Below the pieces are notes generated by a model. It worked only from the letters and a program-made list of their open reading frames with translations, ran no database searches and was not told where the DNA came from. The translations under genes were made by a program, and so were the position numbers. This document shows, piece after piece, positions 1,963 to 41,953 of a DNA stretch of 64,000 nt (position 1 is its first letter; every line of letters starts with the position of its first letter). The DNA comes from Candidatus Raymondbacteria bacterium RIFOXYA2_FULL_49_16. GTDB taxonomy: Bacteria; Fibrobacterota; OXYB2-FULL-49-7; XYB2-FULL-49-35. The stretch is taken from assembly GCA_001789205.1 (NCBI GenBank), contig MFYT01000006.1, positions 10,770-74,769 on the forward strand. The letters are read 5' to 3'.

Positions 1963-2006
1963 GCATGAAATATACTTTTTTACACGCATATGCCACTTTA
2001 CCGGAG

Positions 2007-2043
2007 ATAAAAAAGTGCGGGACGCCCTTGGGAGGCGTCCCGC
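2007..2043 (-). terminator. rho-independent terminator downstream of the sigma factor gene
   Basis: On the minus strand: GCGGGACGCC-TCCCAAG-GGCGTCCCGC followed by a T-run (A-run on plus, 2007-2015). Its counterpart after the mini-sigma is at 41152-41184. Confidence 0.6.
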
Positions 2044-2085
2044 ACCAACCACAAAAGAGAAGGGGGGGATTTATGTATACGCCTA

Positions 2086-2934
2086 TTAGGCGCAATGCGC
2101 CATTTGCACTGTGGGAAAACCCGCTTTCATTTTTTCGAGGGCCTTTTTCTTGATCTGACGCACACGTTCTTTGGAGATGTTCAATTTTCTACCGATCTGC
2201 TCGAGGTTGAAGGAGGTTTCCGCGTCAATGCCAAAATAATACTTGATGACCTTTTTTTCCTGCGTGTTGAGGGAATCGACCATCTCATCGATATTAAAGC
2301 GCAGGGCGTCCTTGTCCACGAATTCGTCCGGCGCCTCGGTGTGGGTGTCGGCCATGAGGTCGTGGATATTGGCGTCGTTCTCGTCATCGATCTGGGCGTC
2401 CATGGAAACACGGTTGTTGGAAAGCGAGAGAATCTGCTCAATCTCGTACGGTTTGCTCTGGGACTTACGCGCCACATAATCGTAATCAATGAAGCCGTGT
2501 TCTTGCAGAGACATTTCCGCGAGGCGGTTGACCCGTTTTGACTTTGACTCTTTTTCCGCTGAGACGCGGACCAGGCGCGATTTCTCGTACAGGGCCTTGA
2601 TAATGGACTGCCGGATCCACCACACCGAGTAGGAGATGAACTTGACCGAGTAGCTTGACATATTGTAGCGATCAATGCTTTCAATGAGCCCAAGATTGCC
2701 TTCGTTGATGAGCTCGGGCATGGAGAGGCCCTGGTTTTGGTATTTTATCGACACGCTGACAACAAACCTCAGATTGGACGTGATTAGTTTATTGAGCGCT
2801 TCCTTGCTTTTGCTTTTTTTATATTCAGTGAGGAGTTCACGTTCCTCTTCGCGCGAAAGGCGCGGATACCCTCTGATCTCTTTCAAATATTGATTAACGA
2901 AGTCCTGCTCTGTTCTGTACTTCTTATAATACAT
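2086..2934 (-). CDS. rpoD: RNA polymerase primary sigma factor, short FCB-type sigma-A lacking region 1.1 (282 aa)
   Basis: NLRFVVSV..YQNQGLS.P(E/D)LINEGNLGLI and FISY.VWWIRQSI closely match Bacteroidota/Chlorobiota sigma-A. Region 4.2 is ISKERVRQIKKKALEKMK. GGAGG lies 5 nt before ATG TAT TAT AAG AAG (MYYKK); the ORF-track M at 2946 is actually a TTG inside the RBS. Confidence 0.85.
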   Translation of the reverse strand: MYYKKYRTEQDFVNQYLKEIRGYPRLSREEERELLTEYKKSKSKEALNKLITSNLRFVVSVSIKYQNQGLSMPELINEGNLGLIESIDRYNMSSYSVKFISYSVWWIRQSIIKALYEKSRLVRVSAEKESKSKRVNRLAEMSLQEHGFIDYDYVARKSQSKPYEIEQILSLSNNRVSMDAQIDDENDANIHDLMADTHTEAPDEFVDKDALRFNIDEMVDSLNTQEKKVIKYYFGIDAETSFNLEQIGRKLNISKERVRQIKKKALEKMKAGFPTVQMAHCA

Positions 2935-2969
2935 TTTAACCTCCAATTCTCGTTTGATGTTCTATAAAA

Positions 2970-2999
2970 ATATAACGAAAGTGGCTTTTCTATGTGTCA
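2970..2999 (-). promoter_or_regulatory. putative rpoD promoter (TGACAC-N18-TTATAT in sense orientation)
   Basis: Sense strand reads ...CCGTGACACATAGAAAAGCCACTTTCGTTATATTTTTATAG... about 30 nt upstream of the ATG. The same block recurs upstream of the mini-sigma at 40787-40816. The hexamer assignment is tentative. Confidence 0.35.
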
Positions 3000-3069
3000 C
3001 GGTATTGTAATGGAGAGGTAAAAAGACGGTAATGGAAAAAATCGGCGTAACCCGCTATTTTATAATGAC

Positions 3070-29107: not shown

Positions 29108-31441
29108 TCATGCAAGCAATTTTTTTAAAAGTTTGGCAAGGTCGCTGCTCCGGTAGGGTTTGGCGGCCATGCCCGCAAAACCGAATTGTCCGGGATGGGC
29201 CAGCACCGGGTCGTTTGAATACCCGCTTGAGACAATGGCCCTGACCTGCGGATCAATATTTTTCAGCTGCTCAAGGGTTTCTTTGCCGCCCATGCCGTTA
29301 GGAATGGTAAGATCAAGAATGACCACGTCGAATTTCTTTCCCGCTTCCATTGCTGCCTTGTAGCTTCGCAGGGTTTCCTCTCCATGCATGGCAACCGAGA
29401 CATTGTATCCAAGATTTGAGAGCATATCAGTGGCAAGGTTGCGCAAAATAGGCTCGTCGTCCATAATTAGGATGCGGCCCGTGCCATGCGGCGCAATGTC
29501 CGCGGCGTTTTCCTCAGCAGCCAGGGGCCCGGTTGCGGCGGGCAAATAAATTGAAATAGCCGATCCTTTGCCCGGCTCGGATTCAACCGTGATTGTACCG
29601 AAGTGTTTTTTGACAATGGAATATGAGATGGCAAGCCCCAGACCGCTACCCTGTTGTTTGGTGGTGAAAAACGGGTCAAATATCTTTCCCGCCATTTCGC
29701 GGGGAATACCCACACCCGTATCAGCAATGGTGATGCGGGCGTAATTTCCCGGAGCCAGCGGAGGTATCTGTCCCGCACCAAGGACCAGGGTTTCTACTCC
29801 TATTCTGATTGTGCCGCTTCCAGGCATTGCCTGGCGCGCGTTAAGTACGATATTACTGATGAGTTGAGAAATCTGGCCTGGATCAGCCTCGCATGGCAGT
29901 TGCTGCTGGGCAAAGGTGTATTTGCATACGCAGGATGAACCGCTTATGGCAAGCTCGGCAGCGTCCCGAATAAGCGGCTGCAGATCAACGGGCTTTTTTG
30001 CCGGGCTGCCGCCTTTGGCAAAGGTAAGGAGCTGATTGGTGAGGTCTTTTACCCTGTTGAAGGCGCCCATTGCCCGGTCAAGATAATGCGCTGGCTTTTC
30101 ATCGGCCGAAAGCAGATTGCGCGCCATGTCGATGTATCCAAAAAGACCTGAGAGCATATTATTGAAATCGTGGGCAATGCCACCCGCGAGGATGCCCAGG
30201 GAATCAAGTTTTTGGGATTTTTGCATCTCGTATTCCAGGCGTTTGCGTTCTTCCTCGGCCTGTTTTATCTTTGTTTCATCAGTATAGACGGCAACGATCT
30301 CACCGGATGCTAGTTTGTACACATAGTTATCGCGCCATCCGACAATGCGATCGTCCATGTACTGGCCAACGGGAAAATGTTCCGGAGCGCCTGTGCGATA
30401 CACCCGCTGGAACACGGCGAAAATGCCAAAATCCCTGACACCGGGAAAGGCCTCGGTGACCCGTTTTCCTAAAACCTGCTCGCGCGGCATCTGTTCCATG
30501 GCTTGGGCTGCTTTGTTGAATTCCTTGAAGATAAAATCGTCCCCATTGTCCACGACCTCGTACACAGCCACGGCTGTCTGCATGGTATCGATGAGCATGC
30601 GGTAGCGGCCTTCACTCAGGACCATCTGCTGGTTTGCGGCGCGAAGCTGCTGTTCGGTCGCCTGAAGCTGTTGGTTCGCGGCCCGGAGCTGCTGTTCGTT
30701 AGCTGTCAACTGCTGGTTTGACGCCTTGAGCTGCTGTTCGCTTGCTGTCAGCTGCTGGTTGGTGCTGTCCAGCTTACGATTTGCATCAAACAATAGGTTC
30801 AGCATTGCGGTGCGGGCGCTGACAAACCGTATTGAGGTGACGAGCACATAGATAAAAAGGACCACGCACAAGACAAAAAGAACAATTTGGATCTTGTGAA
30901 ACGCGCTGATTTTCTCATCAATTGTCGCGTGGATTTCTGCAGTGAGGCTGTCCGCGCGCAGAATGAGTTCGGTAAAAAGCGAATCGTATGAAGCGTCAGA
31001 AAGTGAACGGTCGGAGAGCCTTTTTTGTGACAAATCTTTAATTGATAGAATGATGATAGAAAAGGTGTTTGAATAAGAACAGATGCCCGTGGTGCAGGTA
31101 TCGGGTTTTTTGACCCCCAGGACTTGGTGCATGCAGAGACGGCCTGCATGGGTCTCTGCGCTGTCGAGGCACGGCCAGAGAGAATCGAGCGTCTGGTCAG
31201 GATCGCCCGCGAGATATTCCTCGAATGCAAGGTGGGCGCGAATGGCTTCGTATTTTGCGTTTAGCGCTGCATGTTCAATGGGCAGCAGCGTACGGGTGAT
31301 TGTTGATTCAATGTGCAGGGAATAGGCGACGAATCCTGCGACAAACAACCCGAGCAGCGCTGCCGGAACATAGATCCGGCTGGCGCGTGTGAGGCGTTGT
31401 CGCCTGGCCGTCCTTGGTTCAGGGCCTTTCTTCATGGGCAT
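29108..31441 (-). CDS. hybrid sensor histidine kinase/response regulator (TM-periplasmic-TM, coiled coil, PAS, HisKA, HATPase_c, REC)
   Basis: Two TM segments, a QQL heptad coiled coil, a PAS domain, H-box LAGGIAHDFNNML, N/G boxes and a C-terminal receiver RILIMDDEP...D. Confidence 0.9.
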   Translation of the reverse strand: MPMKKGPEPRTARRQRLTRASRIYVPAALLGLFVAGFVAYSLHIESTITRTLLPIEHAALNAKYEAIRAHLAFEEYLAGDPDQTLDSLWPCLDSAETHAGRLCMHQVLGVKKPDTCTTGICSYSNTFSIIILSIKDLSQKRLSDRSLSDASYDSLFTELILRADSLTAEIHATIDEKISAFHKIQIVLFVLCVVLFIYVLVTSIRFVSARTAMLNLLFDANRKLDSTNQQLTASEQQLKASNQQLTANEQQLRAANQQLQATEQQLRAANQQMVLSEGRYRMLIDTMQTAVAVYEVVDNGDDFIFKEFNKAAQAMEQMPREQVLGKRVTEAFPGVRDFGIFAVFQRVYRTGAPEHFPVGQYMDDRIVGWRDNYVYKLASGEIVAVYTDETKIKQAEEERKRLEYEMQKSQKLDSLGILAGGIAHDFNNMLSGLFGYIDMARNLLSADEKPAHYLDRAMGAFNRVKDLTNQLLTFAKGGSPAKKPVDLQPLIRDAAELAISGSSCVCKYTFAQQQLPCEADPGQISQLISNIVLNARQAMPGSGTIRIGVETLVLGAGQIPPLAPGNYARITIADTGVGIPREMAGKIFDPFFTTKQQGSGLGLAISYSIVKKHFGTITVESEPGKGSAISIYLPAATGPLAAEENAADIAPHGTGRILIMDDEPILRNLATDMLSNLGYNVSVAMHGEETLRSYKAAMEAGKKFDVVILDLTIPNGMGGKETLEQLKNIDPQVRAIVSSGYSNDPVLAHPGQFGFAGMAAKPYRSSDLAKLLKKLLA
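30626..30772. repeat. 7 x 21-nt tandem repeat (3.5 x 42-nt higher-order unit) encoding a QQLxAxx heptad array
   Basis: Plus-strand units ctgctggtttgcggcgcgaag / ctgctgttcggtcgcctgaag / ... The minus strand encodes QQLTASE QQLKASN QQLTANE QQLRAAN QQLQATE QQLRAAN QQM.... Confidence 0.8.
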
Positions 31442-39815: not shown

Positions 39816-40722
39816 CATTACTCAGTGAAGGCTGCCTGGGATGAAAAGGCCAGAAAAGAAATCCCTGTGGTAATCTTGGCGCTGGGGTCTTCCTCTTTTT
39901 TTATCCAGAAAGGCCTGTCAGAGAGCCTCTCCGGCCGTTTTCTGCTGTATCGCTTTCCTCATTGGAGCTTTCCGGAAATGAAGGCCCTGTACGGGTGGGA
40001 TGTGGATAAATGGATCTTTTATGGCGGGTATCCCGGCACCGGAACACTCGTCGATACACCCGGCACCTGGCAAAACTATGTCACGGATTCCCTCATTGAA
40101 ACCGTGCTCGCAAAGGATGTGCTGCAAATGCAGAGCGTGGCAAAGCCCGCGTTACTGAGGCACCTCTTTGCGCTATCCGCGGCGCATCCGGCGCAGATAT
40201 TTTCCTATAATAAAATGTTTGGCCAGCTTCAGGATGCGGGCAACACTACCACCCTGTCCCATTATCTCAAGCTCTTGGAATCAGCTTATCTCATCATGCG
40301 GACTGGAAATGTTCCGGCAGGGTCAGAGGGTCAAAAGAGGCAGCAGCCCCAAGATTATCTTATGGAACAATGCCCTTGTCACGGCGCTCCATTTAAAATC
40401 TTTTGCGGAAACACGGAAAGATCACGAATGGTGGGGGTGTCTTGTGGAAAACGCGGTCGGTGGTCACCTGCTCAATCACCTCCATGAGACAGCAGGTGAG
40501 TTGTATTACTGGCGGCAGAGAGACTTTGAAGTGGATTTTGTGCTGAAAACCGCTGAAAAAACAGTGGCCATTGAAGTCAAATCTTCCCGGCCAAGGGTGT
40601 CAAAAGGTCTTGAGGCGTTTTTAAAGAGGTATCCAAAGGCCGTGCCGGTCATTATCGGACCGGGTGGCATAGCTCTTGAAGAGTTTTTCACCATGTCTTT
40701 AGACAAACTGCCAGGATTGTAA
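39816..40722 (+). pseudogene. DUF4143-family AAA ATPase remnant (5'-truncated, +1 frameshift near 40302-40312)
   Basis: The frame opens after a stop at 39813-39815, already inside the ATPase domain (VVILALGSSSFF..SESLSGRF...; Walker A missing). YLKLLESAYLIMR (frame 0) continues as ...FRQGQRVKRGSSPKIILWNNAL (frame +1). Confidence 0.6.
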
Positions 40723-40748
40723 CGGTTGTTGTTTATAATTATTGTCGC

Positions 40749-40779
40749 GTATTTCGTCCTTTTTTTACTTCACCATTAC
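40749..40779. repeat. 31-bp imperfect direct repeat, copy B
   Basis: See copy A at 39681-39712. Copy B directly precedes the mini-sigma promoter block. Confidence 0.6.
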
Positions 40780-40786
40780 ATTCGTG

Positions 40787-40816
40787 TGACACTTAGAAAT
40801 TTGGTTTTCGTTATAT
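40787..40816 (+). promoter_or_regulatory. putative promoter of the mini-sigma gene, paralogous to the rpoD upstream block
   Basis: CGTGTGACACTTAGAAATTTGGTTTTCGTTATATTTATAAC aligns with the rpoD upstream CCGTGACACATAGAAAAGCCACTTTCGTTATATTTTTATAG, including an identical TTCGTTATATTT. Confidence 0.35.
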
Positions 40817-40850
40817 TTATAACACACAAGACAATGTATCGGAGGACAGA

Positions 40851-41105
40851 ATGTATTACAAAAAACCTGCTGTGAAGAATGAAGAAAAACATGTCAATAT
40901 TGAAGAAATGATCGGTACACTCACCAGTCCGGAAAAACTGGTCATCAGTTCCTATTTCGGGCTCAACGAAAAAGAAGCGTTGACCCTTGAGCAAGTCGAG
41001 AAAAAGCTGAATATTTCAGAGGAACGGGTCAGGCAGCTCAAAAACAATGCTTTGGATAAAATGAAACATGCCTTCCAAACAGTACAAATAGCGTATTGCA
41101 CATAG
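40851..41105 (+). CDS. sigma-70 region-4-only protein ('mini-sigma'), an internal-deletion paralog of the primary sigma factor
   Basis: GGAGG-N5-ATG TAT TAC AAA AAA (MYYKK), as in rpoD. Residues 20-84 align with the rpoD C-terminus at ~55-60% identity (YFG(I/L)...L(E/T)LEQ(I/V)..KLNIS.ERVRQ.K..AL.KMK..F.TVQ.A.C.*). Confidence 0.7.
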   Translation: MYYKKPAVKNEEKHVNIEEMIGTLTSPEKLVISSYFGLNEKEALTLEQVEKKLNISEERVRQLKNNALDKMKHAFQTVQIAYCT

Positions 41106-41151
41106 CACTATGTGTTAATATAAATCCCCCTTCTCTTTTGTGGTTGGTAAC

Positions 41152-41184
41152 GGGGCGCCCCCCCTTGGCGCCCCTTACTTTTTG
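41152..41184 (+). terminator. rho-independent terminator after the mini-sigma gene
   Basis: GGGGCGCC-CCCCCTT-GGCGCCCC followed by TTACTTTTTG. Confidence 0.6.
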
Positions 41185-41277
41185 TGTTCTTGACCTTCCC
41201 TCCTGCGGAATGACATTTTAGAAACAGACAAATGAAATTTTCTGTGGCAAACAAGAGCATCAAAAAAGGAGACAACA

Positions 41278-41421
41278 ATGGGTAAATTTTTGATCGTGGT
41301 TTCGCTCTTTATGTTCGGCTGTGCTTCTCAAAAAGCGACCAAAAGCAATGCTGATCTGTCAGAGGAAAAGGCCAAGGCGGGTTTTGAAGAGATGCAGAAG
41401 GAATTGGACAAAAATAAGTGA
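41278..41421 (+). CDS. small lipoprotein (47 aa), below the 60-aa ORF-track cutoff
   Basis: AGGAG 7 nt upstream. MGKFLIVVSLFMFGCASQKATKSNADLSEEKAKAGFEEMQKELDKNK has an LFMFGC lipobox and a charged helical tail. Confidence 0.45.
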   Translation: MGKFLIVVSLFMFGCASQKATKSNADLSEEKAKAGFEEMQKELDKNK

Positions 41422-41443
41422 TACGAGGTATCTGGCGCCTTTT

Positions 41444-41953
41444 TCAGGCAAGCGCCCGCTGATATTCTGCTAGATCCCGTTCTGAGAAGCAGCAAAAGAT
41501 CACCTGCATGGGATTGACAAGGGTTTCAAGCGTGGTGCGTACCGTGGCAACAGCCACCTGGGCCGCCTTCTCAATTGGATAGCCATAGACACCGGTGCTT
41601 ATCGCCGGAAACGCGATCTCCCTGATTCCATGCTGTTGTGCAATCTCTAAAGATTTTCTGTAACAACTTCCCAGCAGCCCTTTCTCGCCCCGTGCGCCTC
41701 CATGCCACACAGGACCCACGGTATGGATCACGAAACGGACAGGCAGTTTGTAGCCCTTGGTGATTTTTGCGTCTCCGGTCGCGCATCCGCCCAGCGTACG
41801 GCACTCTGCCAGCAGTTCCGGGCCTGCCATCCGGTGAATGGCGCCGTCAACACCGCCGCCTCCCAGAAGCGTGGTGTTTGCGGCATTGACAATGGCATCG
41901 ATTCTTAGGGTCGTTATATCAGCGCGCATGGCTTTCATGGAAGGTTTTACCAT
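41444..41953 (-). CDS. macro-domain protein (O-acetyl-ADP-ribose deacetylase, YmdB-like)
   Basis: [21 protein letters not shown] and [13 protein letters not shown] motifs. Confidence 0.85.

What the first reader, a model, noticed from the sequence alone, without database searches (positions are those of the whole stretch)
40780..41190. Intact region-4-only 'mini-sigma' paralog of the housekeeping sigma factor that keeps the parental promoter, start context, 3'UTR and terminator
The 84-aa ORF at 40851-41105 is a paralog of the primary sigma gene (2086-2934, minus strand) with sigma regions 1.2 to 3 (about 200 codons) deleted. Five features are shared:
(i) A ~45-nt upstream block with identical TTCGTTATATTT and a TGACAC-N18-TTATAT arrangement (40787-40823 versus the reverse complement of 2962-3000).
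(ii) The same translation start, GGAGG-N5-ATG TAT TA(T/C) AA(G/A) AA(G/A), giving MYYKK.
(iii) A C-terminal ~65 aa covering sigma region 4 and the 4.2 helix-turn-helix (...LEQ(I/V)..KLNIS(K/E)ERVRQ(I/L)K..AL(E/D)KMK...TVQ(M/I)A(H/Y)C(A/T)*), about 55-60% identical.
(iv) A 28-nt block right after the stop.
(v) A GC hairpin plus T-run terminator.
Nucleotide divergence is roughly 20-25% and includes synonymous changes, so this is an old duplication rather than an assembly artefact. The reading frame and RBS are intact. A free region-4 module driven by the sigma-A promoter could compete for -35 elements, bind the beta-flap or region-4-directed regulators, or sequester an anti-sigma-like partner. 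I know of no characterised equivalent for the FCB-type short sigma-A.
Basis: partly seen in the sequence, partly recalled or inferred. Interest (0 to 1): 0.75.

Follow-up and report, generated by a model that had tools for sequence, protein, structure and literature searches.

The report
Conserved region-4-only sigma factor paralogue
An uncultured Raymondbacteria genome carries a shortened copy of its main sigma factor that keeps only the last domain plus the parent gene's control signals. A second organism has the same short gene, so it is probably a working small protein rather than junk, but its role is untested.

Summary
ORF 40851-41105 (84 aa) is a Sigma70_r4-only protein, 54% identical over 69 aa to the C-terminus of the 282-aa sigma at 2086-2934(-).

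Homology also covers the non-coding flanks:
- upstream block (z=14 against shuffles);
- RBS and first five codons;
- a 23/23-nt box in the 3'UTR;
- the terminator (z=22).

A full HMMER search of 1.84 billion representatives found one close relative, P0122. It is 83 aa and 59% identical, with the same build: (M/V)YYK, a short linker, region 4 and a VQIAYC tail. It shares derived residues with the window protein, so the two form a small family rather than being a one-off remnant.

Changes in both mini proteins avoid sites that are invariant in 24 full-length orthologues (p about 0.01). The changes they do have hit DNA-facing basic residues: net charge of region 4 falls from +4 to -1 and 0.

The AlphaFold2 model matches solved sigma-A region 4.

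Other duplicates of this sigma cassette in relatives (L015, L020) are truncated or frameshifted.

Most likely this is an expressed free sigma-4 domain, co-regulated with the parent sigma, that acts through protein contacts. The mechanism is inferred only.

The parts
40760..40823 (+). Upstream control block copied from the parent sigma. It holds three phased repeats, TTAC (40765-40768), TTACA (40776-40780) and GTGACAC (40786-40792), each 11 nt apart. After 18 nt comes TTATAT(TT) (40811-40818), a -10/-7-like element.
   Evidence: 77% identical to the reverse complement of 2965-3024, z=14 against shuffles. The mini copy agrees at 26 of the 28 upstream columns that are invariant in seven full-length sigma cassettes from other genomes. 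Promoter function is inferred: the sigma-70 consensus scan finds no match here.
40841..40865 (+). Shine-Dalgarno GGAGG (40841-40845), a 5-nt spacer, the ATG (40851) and codons 2-5 (YYKK). This is the same start context as the parent.
   Evidence: Direct reading. The parent has GGAGG-N5-ATG TAT TAT AAG AAG at 2951-2920(-). P0122 also begins (V)YYK.
40851..41105 (+). 84-aa mini-sigma ORF, including the TAG stop. Residues 1-5 match the parental N-terminus. Residues 6-15 are a linker of unclear origin. Residues 16-84 are sigma region 4.
   Evidence: ORF list. Pfam Sigma70_r4 E=1e-11. BLASTP 54% over 69 aa, E=5e-25. Exact protein found in 21 contigs, always in the same context. An 83-aa homologue, P0122, is 59% identical.
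40896..41102 (+). Sigma region 4 domain (4.1, the 4.2 helix-turn-helix and the C-terminal tail VQIAYCT).
   Evidence: AlphaFold2 helices at 17-21, 26-36, 46-53 and 57-74; mean pLDDT is 83-90 per 10-residue block over residues 21-70. Foldseek top hits are Thermus and S. aureus sigma-A region 4 (1ku7_A TMt 0.74, 4g6d_A 0.81). There are no indels against the parent over 69 codons.
41126..41148 (+). 3'UTR box CCCCCTTCTCTTTTGTGGTTGGT: a pyrimidine-rich, anti-Shine-Dalgarno-like stretch followed by TTGGT. It is 23/23 identical to the parent's box.
   Evidence: two copies in the window, none in shuffles. A related box (CCTCCTTTTT / CCCCCTCTTTTT, followed by ATTGGT in most) precedes the terminator in all seven other cassettes. 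In the predicted fold of the mini transcript the SD pairs with the CCUUC of this box, but the statistical support is weak.
41149..41184 (+). Intrinsic terminator: G+C hairpin (stem 41152-41174) followed by a T-run.
   Evidence: Terminator scan. The parent's hairpin (2046-2014, -) has a different stem sequence but still pairs. Homology to the parent ends here.
2086..2934 (-). Parent gene: a 282-aa sigma with regions 1.2, 2, 3 and 4, of the short Bacteroidota/Fibrobacterota primary-sigma type.
   Evidence: Pfam r1_2, r2, r3 and r4. About 25 orthologues at 60-73% identity and 280-284 aa; the next best hits are Bacteroidales 287-aa RpoD/SigA at about 42%. The best solved relatives are SigA/RpoD.
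2005..2066 (-). Parent 3'UTR box (2044-2066) and terminator (2014-2046, with the T-run reaching about 2005).
2962..3026 (-). Parent upstream control block (TTAC / TTACA / GTGACAC repeats and TTATATTT).

Best explanation
The 84-aa ORF is a selected, expressed 'micro-sigma'. It arose when the whole cassette of the primary-type sigma, from upstream control block to terminator, was duplicated. An in-frame internal deletion then removed regions 1.2-3. What remains is the first five codons, a roughly 10-residue linker and a complete region-4 domain.

It keeps the parent's upstream repeats, -10-like element, RBS, 3'UTR box and terminator. It should therefore be made whenever the parent sigma is made.

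It lacks sigma region 2, so it cannot act as a sigma factor. Both known family members lost several DNA-facing basic residues but kept the hydrophobic core and the C-terminal tail. The most likely action is therefore through protein contacts normally made by region 4 of the parent sigma. Two candidates are the RNA polymerase beta-flap tip, or a regulator or anti-sigma that grips region 4. In either case it would serve as a co-regulated competitor or decoy.

What is shown: homology, architecture, fold, conservation in a second organism, and constraint on coding and control elements.
What is inferred: expression, and the decoy mechanism.
For: Origin:
- Coding and flank homology.
- The mini, P0122 and the window's own sigma alone share NI(D/E)xM and F(P/Q)(T/A)VQ(M/I)A(H/Y)C. 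This places the duplication inside this sub-lineage.

Not a one-off remnant:
- P0122 (83 aa, 59% identical) has the same architecture. It is a complete gene inside its contig.
- The two mini proteins agree with each other but differ from the window's own sigma at 11 sites. At least five of these are clearly derived, including K65N and K66N.

Constraint:
- Substitutions are depleted at sites invariant in 24 full-length orthologues: mini 7/26 against 25/43, p=0.014; P0122 5/26 against 22/43, p=0.011.
- There are no indels in 69 codons, while the flanks carry several.
- Pairwise dN 0.27-0.30 against dS 1.3-2.2.
- Although dS is saturated, the mini copy keeps 26/28 upstream and 14/16 downstream columns that are invariant across seven sigma cassettes, plus the 23/23 box.

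Fold: the AlphaFold2 model matches sigma-A region 4.

Protein partner rather than DNA:
- Three of the positions invariant in full-length sigmas that are changed in a mini align with E. coli -35 contact residues. K, aligned with R584, becomes E or M. Q, aligned with R554, becomes P or H. R, aligned with R586, becomes Q in P0122 only. The KK aligned with A592/K593 becomes NN in both (E. coli numbering from my own alignment and knowledge).
- Net charge of region 4 falls from +4 to -1 and 0. The recognition-helix segment falls from +6 to +2 and +1.
- The tail VQIAYC is identical in both mini proteins. It aligns with helix H5, which together with H1 and H2 contacts the beta-flap tip (PMC2988021).

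Precedent for titration: the title of Sharma et al. 1999 states that a truncated sigma-70 fragment neutralised AsiA toxicity (reference list of PMC2988021).

Contrast: other duplicates of this cassette in relatives are visibly broken (L015 is 5'-truncated; L020 has two frameshifts).
Against: - Only two family members exist among 5.8 billion clustered and 1.84 billion representative proteins. P0122 sits on a 1.4-kb contig whose DNA I could not obtain, so dN/dS within the mini family could not be computed.
- The pairwise dN/dS mixes the strongly constrained parental branch with the mini branch. If all dN lies on the mini branch, omega could be up to about 0.5.
- GC3 has dropped from 0.62 to 0.49 and the protein evolves much faster than the parent. 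Relaxed selection fits this too.
- There are no expression data.
- A free region 4 should compete poorly with the tethered region 4 of a sigma already bound to core (my reasoning).
- The base-contacting E, R and Q of the recognition helix (E. coli E585, R588, Q589) are retained, so DNA binding is not excluded.
- The adjacent DUF4143 gene is a pseudogene, which shows that the neighbourhood tolerates decay.
Confidence: 0.45

Rival explanations
1. It is a non-functional remnant. A duplicated sigma cassette suffered an internal deletion that happened to stay in frame, and it is decaying slowly. The open frame and retained signals are leftovers.
For: - Sigma cassette duplicates do arise and decay in this clade. 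L015 is a 5'-truncated 3' fragment next to a truncated Tn3 transposase. L020 is a full cassette with two frameshifts in a non-syntenic place.
- The mini evolves fast: 46% amino-acid divergence from the parent, while 26 of the 69 compared region-4 positions, including the core motif ISKERVRQIKK, are (nearly) invariant across 24 orthologues.
- GC3 has fallen.
- The upstream neighbour is a pseudogene.
- Only two members are known.
Against: - Two lineages that are 41% divergent both keep the start, the frame, the length (84 and 83 aa) and the tail.
- Substitutions avoid structurally invariant sites.
- There are no indels in coding sequence but several in the flanks.
- With dS above 1, unconstrained promoter, RBS and 3' box sequence should no longer be recognisable. 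Yet 26/28 and 14/16 invariant columns and a 23/23 block persist.
Confidence: 0.2
2. It is a small DNA-binding regulator. The free helix-turn-helix binds -35-like sequences, for instance the three phased TTAC / TTACA / GTGACA repeats upstream of both the sigma gene and its own gene. It would feed back on sigma expression or compete with holoenzyme at selected promoters.
For: - The mini keeps the recognition-helix residues E, R and Q that align with E. coli E585, R588 and Q589.
- Three T(T/G)AC repeats at 11-nt spacing are invariant upstream of all eight cassettes.
- Isolated region 4 of sigma-A binds -35 DNA in the crystal structure 1ku7, which is among the top structural matches.
Against: - Four to five positive charges were lost, mostly in the DNA-facing helix.
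- The residue aligned with R584 is E in one mini and M in the other, and the R586 position is Q in P0122. The DNA-contact surface is therefore not conserved within the family.
- An isolated region 4 is generally a weak DNA binder (my knowledge).
- Nothing links the repeats to region 4 specifically.
Confidence: 0.15
3. The selected product is the RNA. The locus is kept because its 5'UTR and 3'UTR elements titrate or share a post-transcriptional regulator of the sigma mRNA, and the short ORF is incidental.
For: - The non-coding blocks are better conserved between the paralogues (76-77% and 23/23) than the coding part (66%).
- The anti-SD-like box is conserved in all cassettes.
- The predicted fold of the mini transcript pairs the SD with the box.
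- 5'-3' UTR pairing that controls translation is known for icaR (PMC3868564) and hbs (PMC5737220).
Against: - Protein-level conservation with P0122, and the site-specific pattern of substitutions, point to selection on the protein.
- Duplex energies are not better than shuffled controls for six of seven genes.
- Rfam finds nothing.
Confidence: 0.08
4. It is the region-4 half of a split sigma. It works in trans with a separate region-2 protein, as in B. subtilis SigO-RsoA or T4 gp55/gp33.
For: Split sigma factors exist (PMC7826278). The mini is a complete, foldable region 4.
Against: - No region-2-only gene lies beside it. The neighbours are a DUF4143 pseudogene, a 47-aa ORF and a Macro-domain gene.
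- The DNA-contact residues are degenerating.
Confidence: 0.05
5. It is a by-product of a mobile element: a displaced 3' gene end left at an integration site, as with the icd fragment left by e14 or phage 21, or a passenger on an element.
For: - P0122 is followed by an HTH_17 (excisionase-type) gene.
- L015's fragment lies beside Tn3 transposase remains.
- L020's copy has a weak integrase hit about 4 kb away.
Against: - The window copy also carries the parent's upstream block and first codons, which an attachment-site duplication would not.
- The two copies are inverted and 38 kb apart.
- The neighbours are LptE, DapF and Macro, with no integrase.
- No relatives occur in 2.9 million viral contigs.
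Confidence: 0.03

Closest known systems
Short primary sigma of Bacteroidota / FCB bacteria (about 287-aa RpoD/SigA)
   Same: The parent gene is of this type. It has 282 aa, regions 1.2-4 and no region 1.1. It is 42-44% identical to Bacteroidales and other Bacteroidota RpoD/SigA. The mini's region 4 derives from it.
   Different: The mini lacks regions 1.2, 2 and 3. It therefore lacks the main core-binding and -10-recognition parts and cannot be a sigma factor.
Two-subunit or split sigma factors (B. subtilis SigO-RsoA; phage T4 gp55 with gp33)
   Same: Region-2 and region-4 functions sit on separate small polypeptides (PMC7826278). From my knowledge, T4 gp33 occupies the beta-flap without binding DNA, which is what the decoy reading proposes for the mini.
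   Different: No partner gene is nearby. The mini is a recent derivative of the primary sigma, not of an ECF-type or phage lineage. gp33 has no sequence relation to it.
Region-4-directed regulators and their titration by sigma fragments (AsiA, Rsd/AlgQ, S. aureus phage G1 ORF67, Wbl proteins)
   Same: These proteins grip free or holoenzyme-bound region 4. Solved complexes of isolated region 4 with ORF67 and with WhiB proteins are among the top structural matches. The title of Sharma et al. 1999 states that a truncated sigma-70 fragment neutralised AsiA toxicity in E. coli (listed in PMC2988021). That is the artificial equivalent of the proposed decoy.
   Different: Those fragments were engineered. 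Here the fragment is a natural, conserved gene under the sigma gene's own control signals. No region-4-binding partner has been identified in this organism.
Eukaryotic 'microProteins' (for example Id, LITTLE ZIPPER): single-domain paralogues of transcription factors that act as dominant-negative competitors
   Same: Same evolutionary route (duplication plus loss of all but one interaction domain) and the same proposed logic (competition for a partner). This comparison rests on my knowledge.
   Different: Different kingdom and protein families. No bacterial sigma example is known to me.
Sporadic stand-alone Sigma70_r4 ORFs in databases
   Same: The HMMER search lists dozens of 80-130-aa proteins that consist of region 4 only, at about 40% identity.
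   Different: The seven I looked up are singleton clusters. Four lie on contigs of 1.4 kb or less, so they may be gene fragments, and none carries a specific name. None shares the MYYK start, the NNAL signature or the AYC tail. No curated family exists for them.
S. aureus icaR and B. subtilis hbs 5'-3' UTR pairing
   Same: A pyrimidine-rich anti-SD-like motif in the 3'UTR could pair with the Shine-Dalgarno sequence of the same mRNA (PMC3868564, PMC5737220). Both the parent and the mini carry such a box.
   Different: Here there is only a prediction, with weak statistics. No experiment has been done.

Membership tests
Sigma-70 family, region 4 domain (Pfam PF04545) | Profile match above the curated cut-off | tested here: met
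   44.6 bits against a cut-off of 24.1, E=1e-11, residues 21-73.
Sigma-70 family, region 4 domain (Pfam PF04545) | Four-helix region-4 fold with a helix-turn-helix | tested here: met
   AlphaFold2 helices at 17-21, 26-36, 46-53 and 57-74; mean pLDDT is 83-90 per 10-residue block over residues 21-70. Foldseek: 1ku7_A TMt 0.74, 4g6d_A 0.81, 1rio_H 0.86.
Functional sigma factor (any sigma-70 group) | Region 2 present (core binding and -10 recognition or melting) | tested here: not met
   Only Sigma70_r4 is detected. Residues 1-15 are not region 2, and residues 1-13 are disordered in the model.
Group 1 (primary) sigma: status of the parent gene 2086-2934(-) | Regions 1.2, 2, 3 and 4 present, with group 1 sigmas as closest relatives | tested here: met
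   Pfam r1_2, r2, r3 and r4. Best PDB sequence hits are SigA/RpoD, ahead of RpoS and RpoH. Nearest relatives outside the clade are Bacteroidales RpoD/SigA. Two of the orthologues listed are named RpoD/SigA by NCBI and several are named primary sigma by JGI.
Group 1 (primary) sigma: status of the parent gene 2086-2934(-) | Reaches the NCBIfam RpoD equivalog cut-off | tested here: not met
   TIGR02393 scores 183 bits against a cut-off of 354. It scores about equally against the RpoS models.
Group 1 (primary) sigma: status of the parent gene 2086-2934(-) | Only group-1-type sigma in the genome, and essential | not testable with these tools
   The whole genome was not available: the species was not hit in genome contigs.
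Mini-sigma family (window protein plus P0122) | Same architecture and shared derived residues in independent genomes | tested here: met
   Both have (M/V)YYK, an 8-10-aa linker, region 4 and the VQIAYC tail. They agree with each other and differ from the window's own sigma at 11 sites, at least five clearly derived.
Mini-sigma family (window protein plus P0122) | Purifying selection measured within the family (dN/dS between members) | not testable with these tools
   The DNA of the P0122 contig could not be fetched, and the metagenome scan missed it.
Two-subunit sigma (SigO-RsoA type) | A region-2-like partner encoded alongside | tested here: not met
   The neighbours are a DUF4143 pseudogene, a 47-aa ORF, Macro, LptE and DapF.
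Attachment-site partial gene duplication (icd / e14 type) | A 3'-end-only copy, in direct orientation, bounding an integrase-bearing element | tested here: not met
   The copy includes the upstream block and start codons. The copies are inverted. No integrase lies next to either copy. The full 38 kb between the copies was not annotated.
Known RNA family for the 3'UTR box | Rfam covariance-model match | tested here: not met
   No Rfam family reaches its gathering score anywhere in the window.

The most novel reading that the evidence does not exclude
The mini-sigma is a host-encoded region-4 decoy. It is produced in fixed proportion to the primary sigma from the same control signals. It would soak up proteins that attack or regulate sigma through region 4, such as phage AsiA/ORF67-type anti-sigmas or an Rsd-like factor. 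It has shed its DNA-binding charges so that it does not itself disturb promoters. That would make it a natural 'anti-anti-sigma' and the first bacterial microProtein derived from a primary sigma.
Probability: 0.15. Interest if true: 0.8.

Novelty: new variant of a known kind. Interest (0 to 1): 0.55.

Why it matters
Sigma region 4 is a hub. It holds the -35 element and the beta-flap, and it is the target of many activators, anti-sigmas and phage takeover proteins.

A natural, conserved, free-standing copy of that hub, wired to the same control signals as the primary sigma, would be a new way to tune or protect the basal transcription machinery. It would also be a bacterial counterpart of eukaryotic microProteins.

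The case is a clean example of how a one-domain regulator can arise: cassette duplication, followed by an in-frame deletion.

The practical limits are that the host is uncultivated, the family has two known members, and every functional statement is still inference.

Tried and rejected
1. Known stand-alone families. Pfam, NCBIfam and PHROGs give only generic sigma or region-4 hits.

2. Known RNA. The Rfam gathering scan of the whole window was empty.

3. More family members.
- The word-indexed search with the single protein, and then with the two-sequence profile, returned only the two proteins.
It returned only the window's own contig plus unrelated full-length sigmas.
- The genome scan with a degenerate VRQxK(K/N)xALxKM pattern returned five loci, none of them a mini of this family.
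- Two viral scans found nothing close.

4. A shared breakpoint with the independent fragment in L015. Its homology starts one codon before the point where the mini's clear region-4 homology starts. That suggested a site-specific mechanism. However, P0122's linker (NDADVSKI) may be residual homology to the parent's VDKDALRF, which would move the mini's deletion edge about 8 codons upstream. I therefore do not claim a common breakpoint.

5. RNA-mediated (retro-copy) origin, suggested because homology ends at the terminator. I rejected it as unsupported. The window copy also holds about 40 nt upstream of the -35-like element. With dS above 1, neutral flanks would be unrecognisable anyway.

6. Diversity-generating-retroelement-type mutagenesis. 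Differences are not concentrated at adenines: 17 of 70 A against 22 of 47 C and 19 of 47 G.

7. Recent gene conversion as the source of similarity. The last 11 codons are only about 73% identical by my count. Only the 23-nt box is perfect, so at most a micro-conversion of that box.

8. Codon-position test as proof of selection on the mini branch. The 17/15/38 pattern can be produced largely by the constrained parental branch, so I did not rely on it.

9. SD / 3'-box pairing. Duplex energies beat shuffles only for the parent (p=0.03), not for the mini or most orthologues.

10. The sigma-70 consensus promoter scan finds no match at the shared upstream block in either copy. This organism probably uses a different promoter type.
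Full report
**What is at the coordinates**

The window comes from the population represented by the MAG Candidatus Raymondbacteria bacterium RifOxyC12_full_50_8. ORF 40851-41105(+) encodes 84 aa. Its only family matches are sigma-70 region 4:
- Pfam PF04545, 44.6 bits against a cut-off of 24.1.
- In NCBIfam, only the C-terminal ends of the RpoD, RpoS and RpoH models, all far below their cut-offs.

The gene at 2086-2934(-) encodes a 282-aa sigma with regions 1.2, 2, 3 and 4. BLASTP of the two gives 37/69 identities (54%), no gaps, E=5e-25. Residues 16-84 of the short protein align to residues 214-282 of the long one.

**The non-coding homology is real**

- Upstream, 40760-40818 matches the reverse complement of 3026-2968 at 45/59. 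The repeat finder reports it independently as a 60-nt, 77% inverted repeat. The alignment score is 14 standard deviations above dinucleotide shuffles.
- Both copies have GGAGG, 5 nt, then ATG TAT TA(C/T) AA(A/G) AA(A/G).
- Downstream, a 23-nt block is identical in the two copies: CCCCCTTCTCTTTTGTGGTTGGT, at 41126-41148 and at the reverse complement of 2044-2066. It occurs nowhere else in the window.
- A G+C hairpin and T-run follow. The scan calls this a terminator in both copies. The downstream alignment is 22 standard deviations above shuffles.

Two corrections apply. The perfect block is 23 nt and begins 20 nt after the stop codon. Coding divergence is about 34% (137/207 identical), with dS 1.3-2.2, which is saturated.

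**What the parent is**

The 282-aa sigma has about 25 orthologues, 60-73% identical and 280-284 aa long. Those with a source name or a fetched record title come from Fibrobacterota or Fibrobacteres MAGs. The next best hits are the 287-aa RpoD/SigA of Bacteroidales at about 42%. The best solved relatives are group 1 sigmas, ahead of RpoS and RpoH.

Upstream synteny is shared: a lipid A acyltransferase, then an LptC or LptC-positioned gene, then sigma. For L018 and L019 the evidence is only a similar C-terminal peptide in the upstream gene.

The protein does not reach the NCBIfam RpoD cut-off (183 against 354 bits). I could not inspect the rest of the genome. 'Primary sigma of the short FCB type' is therefore likely, not proven.

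**Is the short gene a lone remnant?**

No. An exhaustive HMMER search of 1.84 billion representatives gave one close relative, P0122. It is 83 aa, 59% identical, and reads VYYKTNDADVSKINIEKMM...VQIAYCAC. It is a complete gene at 207-458 of a 1,366-bp JGI contig.

It has the same build: (M/V)YYK, a short linker, region 4 and the same tail.

In an alignment with 24 full-length orthologues:
- The two short proteins agree with each other and differ from the window's own sigma at 11 sites.
- At five or more of those 11 sites the full-length proteins hold the ancestral state (N25T, Y34S, I49V, K65N, K66N).
- Together with the window's own sigma, the two short proteins alone share NI(D/E)xM and F(P/Q)(T/A)VQ(M/I)A(H/Y)C.

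The simplest history is one duplication and one deletion within this sub-lineage, followed by a speciation that both short genes survived.

Sampling of the sub-lineage is thin. The closest full-length relative of the window's sigma in 5.8 billion clusters is only 73% identical. Two members out of very few sampled genomes is therefore not evidence of rarity.

**Evidence for constraint**

1. Substitutions in both short proteins are depleted at sites that are at least 95% invariant in the 24 full-length orthologues. The window protein changed at 7 of 26 such sites against 25 of 43 variable sites (Fisher p=0.014). P0122 changed at 5 of 26 against 22 of 43 (p=0.011).
2. There is no indel in 69 aligned codons. 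The roughly 200 nt of aligned flanks carry about five.
3. Pairwise dN is 0.27-0.30 against a dS of 1.3 or more. Even if every non-synonymous change fell on the short gene's branch, omega there would be at most about 0.5.
4. With synonymous sites saturated, neutral DNA should be unrecognisable. Yet the short gene keeps 26 of the 28 upstream columns and 14 of the 16 downstream columns that are invariant in seven full-length cassettes from other genomes, plus the 23/23 box.
5. The two terminator stems differ in sequence but both pair.
6. The locus is identical in all assemblies read, apart from 7 mismatches in 5 kb in one MAG. These represent one population and add little.

Points on the other side: GC3 fell from 0.62 to 0.49, and the protein evolves much faster than the parent. 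Selection is weaker than on the parent, or different from it.

**A useful contrast**

The degenerate-pattern scan of species-representative genomes and a context look-up turned up other duplicates of this sigma cassette in relatives.

- L020 is a complete cassette: upstream block, gene, 3' box and terminator. It lies in a non-syntenic place, and homology to the syntenic copy (L019) runs only from -86 to the end of the terminator. Its reading frame is broken twice. The frameshifts could be long-read assembly errors.
- L015 sits in the MAG that also holds the intact L019 gene. It is a 5'-truncated piece comprising the last roughly 70 codons, the 3' box and the terminator. It is 92% identical to L020, has no start context, and lies next to a truncated Tn3 transposase.

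Cassette copies therefore arise repeatedly here and usually break. The window/P0122 form is the one that stayed intact across a speciation.

**Fold and surfaces**

AlphaFold2 gives four helices (17-21, 26-36, 46-53, 57-74). Mean pLDDT is 83-90 per 10-residue block over residues 21-70. The N-terminal 13 residues are disordered. The best PDB matches are region 4 of Thermus and S. aureus sigma-A, including the isolated domain on -35 DNA (1ku7) and in complex with phage G1 ORF67 (4g6d).

Against the motif ISKERVRQIKK(K/R)ALEKM, which is constant in the full-length orthologues, the short proteins read ISEERVRQLKNNALDKM and ISMEQVRQIKNNALEKM. The E. coli numbering below comes from my own alignment and knowledge.
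- The position aligned with R584 is E or M.
- R586 is Q in P0122.
- A592/K593 are NN in both.
- The R554 position is P or H.
- E585, R588 and Q589 are kept.

Net charge of the domain falls from +4 to -1 and 0. The recognition-helix segment falls from +6 to +2 and +1. The tail VQIAYC is identical in both short proteins. It aligns with helix H5, which together with H1 and H2 contacts the beta-flap tip (PMC2988021).

**Most likely mechanism**

Without region 2 the protein cannot be a sigma. It carries the parent's control signals, so it should be produced in parallel with the parent.

The loss of DNA-facing charge, which differs in detail between the two members, argues against -35 competition as the conserved role. 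The preserved core and tail argue for a protein partner. That partner could be the beta-flap tip, or a factor that binds region 4.

There is experimental precedent that a free sigma-70 C-terminal fragment can titrate such a factor. The title of Sharma et al. 1999, listed in PMC2988021, reports that a truncated sigma-70 fragment neutralised AsiA toxicity.

I rate 'selected, expressed region-4 protein acting by protein contacts' at 0.45. The rivals are:
- inert remnant, 0.2;
- small DNA-binding regulator, possibly at the phased T(T/G)AC repeats, 0.15;
- RNA-level role of the shared UTRs, 0.08;
- split-sigma half, 0.05;
- mobile-element by-product, 0.03.

**Comparison with what is known**

The protein is a member of the sigma-70 region-4 domain family by profile and by fold. 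It is not a sigma factor. It is not filed under any curated stand-alone family.

Region-4-only ORFs of 80-130 aa do occur in databases. The seven I checked are unnamed singletons. Four lie on contigs of 1.4 kb or less, and they lack this family's signatures.

The functional analogues are T4 gp33 and the SigO-RsoA split sigma, engineered region-4 fragments used to titrate AsiA, and, conceptually, eukaryotic microProteins.

My text searches found no paper describing a natural region-4-only derivative of a primary sigma. The library is incomplete, so this is absence of evidence only.

**Verdict**

The new information is a second family member, measurable constraint, and the loss of DNA-facing charge. 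Function is untested. I rate it a new variant of a known kind, with moderate interest.

Noticed in passing
window 41126-41148 and 2044-2066(-); L007, L015-L020 just upstream of each sigma terminator: Every sigma cassette in this clade has a pyrimidine-rich, anti-Shine-Dalgarno-like box before the terminator hairpin: CCTCCTTTTT, CCCCCTCTTTTT or CCCCCTTCTCTTTT, followed by (A)TTGGT in most. In L019 and L020 it resembles, from memory, the 3' end of 16S rRNA (AGATCCTCCTTT). It could pair with the strong SD of the same mRNA, as in icaR. The predicted fold of the mini transcript does this, but duplex energies beat shuffles only for the parent gene (p=0.03).
   Followed up: partly
window 40765-40792 and 2992-3020(-); the same positions in L007 and L016-L020: Three direct repeats, TTAC / TTAC(A) / GTGACAC, each 11 nt apart (one helical turn), are invariant upstream of all eight sigma cassettes. 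About 18-19 nt further on comes T(T)ATAT(T)T. This looks like a conserved regulator-binding array or an unusual promoter. The sigma-70 consensus scan does not call it.
   Followed up: partly
L015 6108-6320(-), with a Tn3 transposase fragment at L015 6936-7799(-); L019 5866-6718: MAG MFD04716.bin.2.54 carries an intact syntenic sigma (L019). It also carries a separate 5'-truncated copy comprising the last roughly 70 codons, the 3' box and the terminator. That copy is 85% identical to the MAG's own sigma and 92% to the L020 cassette. dN/dS against L019 is about 0.1. Homology stops exactly at the terminator. It lies next to a truncated Tn3-family transposase.
   Followed up: partly
L020 4854-5872: A complete sigma cassette (upstream repeats, gene, 3' box, terminator) sits in a non-syntenic location, with an AAA ATPase nearby and a weak phage-integrase hit about 4 kb upstream. 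The reading frame is broken twice into 164-, 61- and 63-aa ORFs. This is either a decaying second copy or long-read assembly errors.
   Followed up: partly
window 39825-40722(+): The DUF4143-domain gene just upstream of the mini-sigma is split into two overlapping frames (39825-40487 and 40168-40722). Only fragments of 92-137 aa are called in the assemblies listed, so it is a genuine pseudogene.
   Followed up: partly
window 41278-41421(+): A 47-aa ORF lies directly downstream of the mini-sigma terminator. It has a signal-peptide-like start and a lipobox-like LFMFGC. It is called as a gene in most assemblies and has no family match.
   Followed up: no
C-termini of P0002-P0024; window 2086-2100(-): Most full-length sigmas of this clade end in (L/M)-A-x-C-A, with a cysteine at the penultimate residue (a minority end in ...LSA or ...MSA). 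Both mini-sigmas keep the A-Y-C. This is an unusual, conserved C-terminal cysteine in the part of region 4 that contacts the beta-flap.
   Followed up: no
P0123 (1692 aa), P0125 (749 aa), P0126, P0127 and others: Large proteins with 7-12 separate matches to region 4, apparently tandem arrays of sigma-4-like helix-turn-helix domains, rank among the best hits to the mini-sigma.
   Followed up: no
L014 2938-3972: A 345-aa protein has a region-4-like domain at its N-terminus, followed by about 280 residues I did not examine further. It was picked up by the metagenome scan.
   Followed up: no
window 30623-30760: Four overlapping 54-nt repeat copies, offset by 21 or 42 nt (a 21-nt periodicity; motif CAGCTGCTGGTT / AAGCTGCTGTTC), lie within the span of the 777-aa ORF at 29108-31441(-). 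They probably encode a heptad-like repeat.
   Followed up: no
window 40500-41500: G+C drops to 41-44% across the mini-sigma locus, against 51-58% in the neighbouring genes. GC3 of the mini is 0.49 against 0.62-0.67 in the parent sigma.
   Followed up: partly
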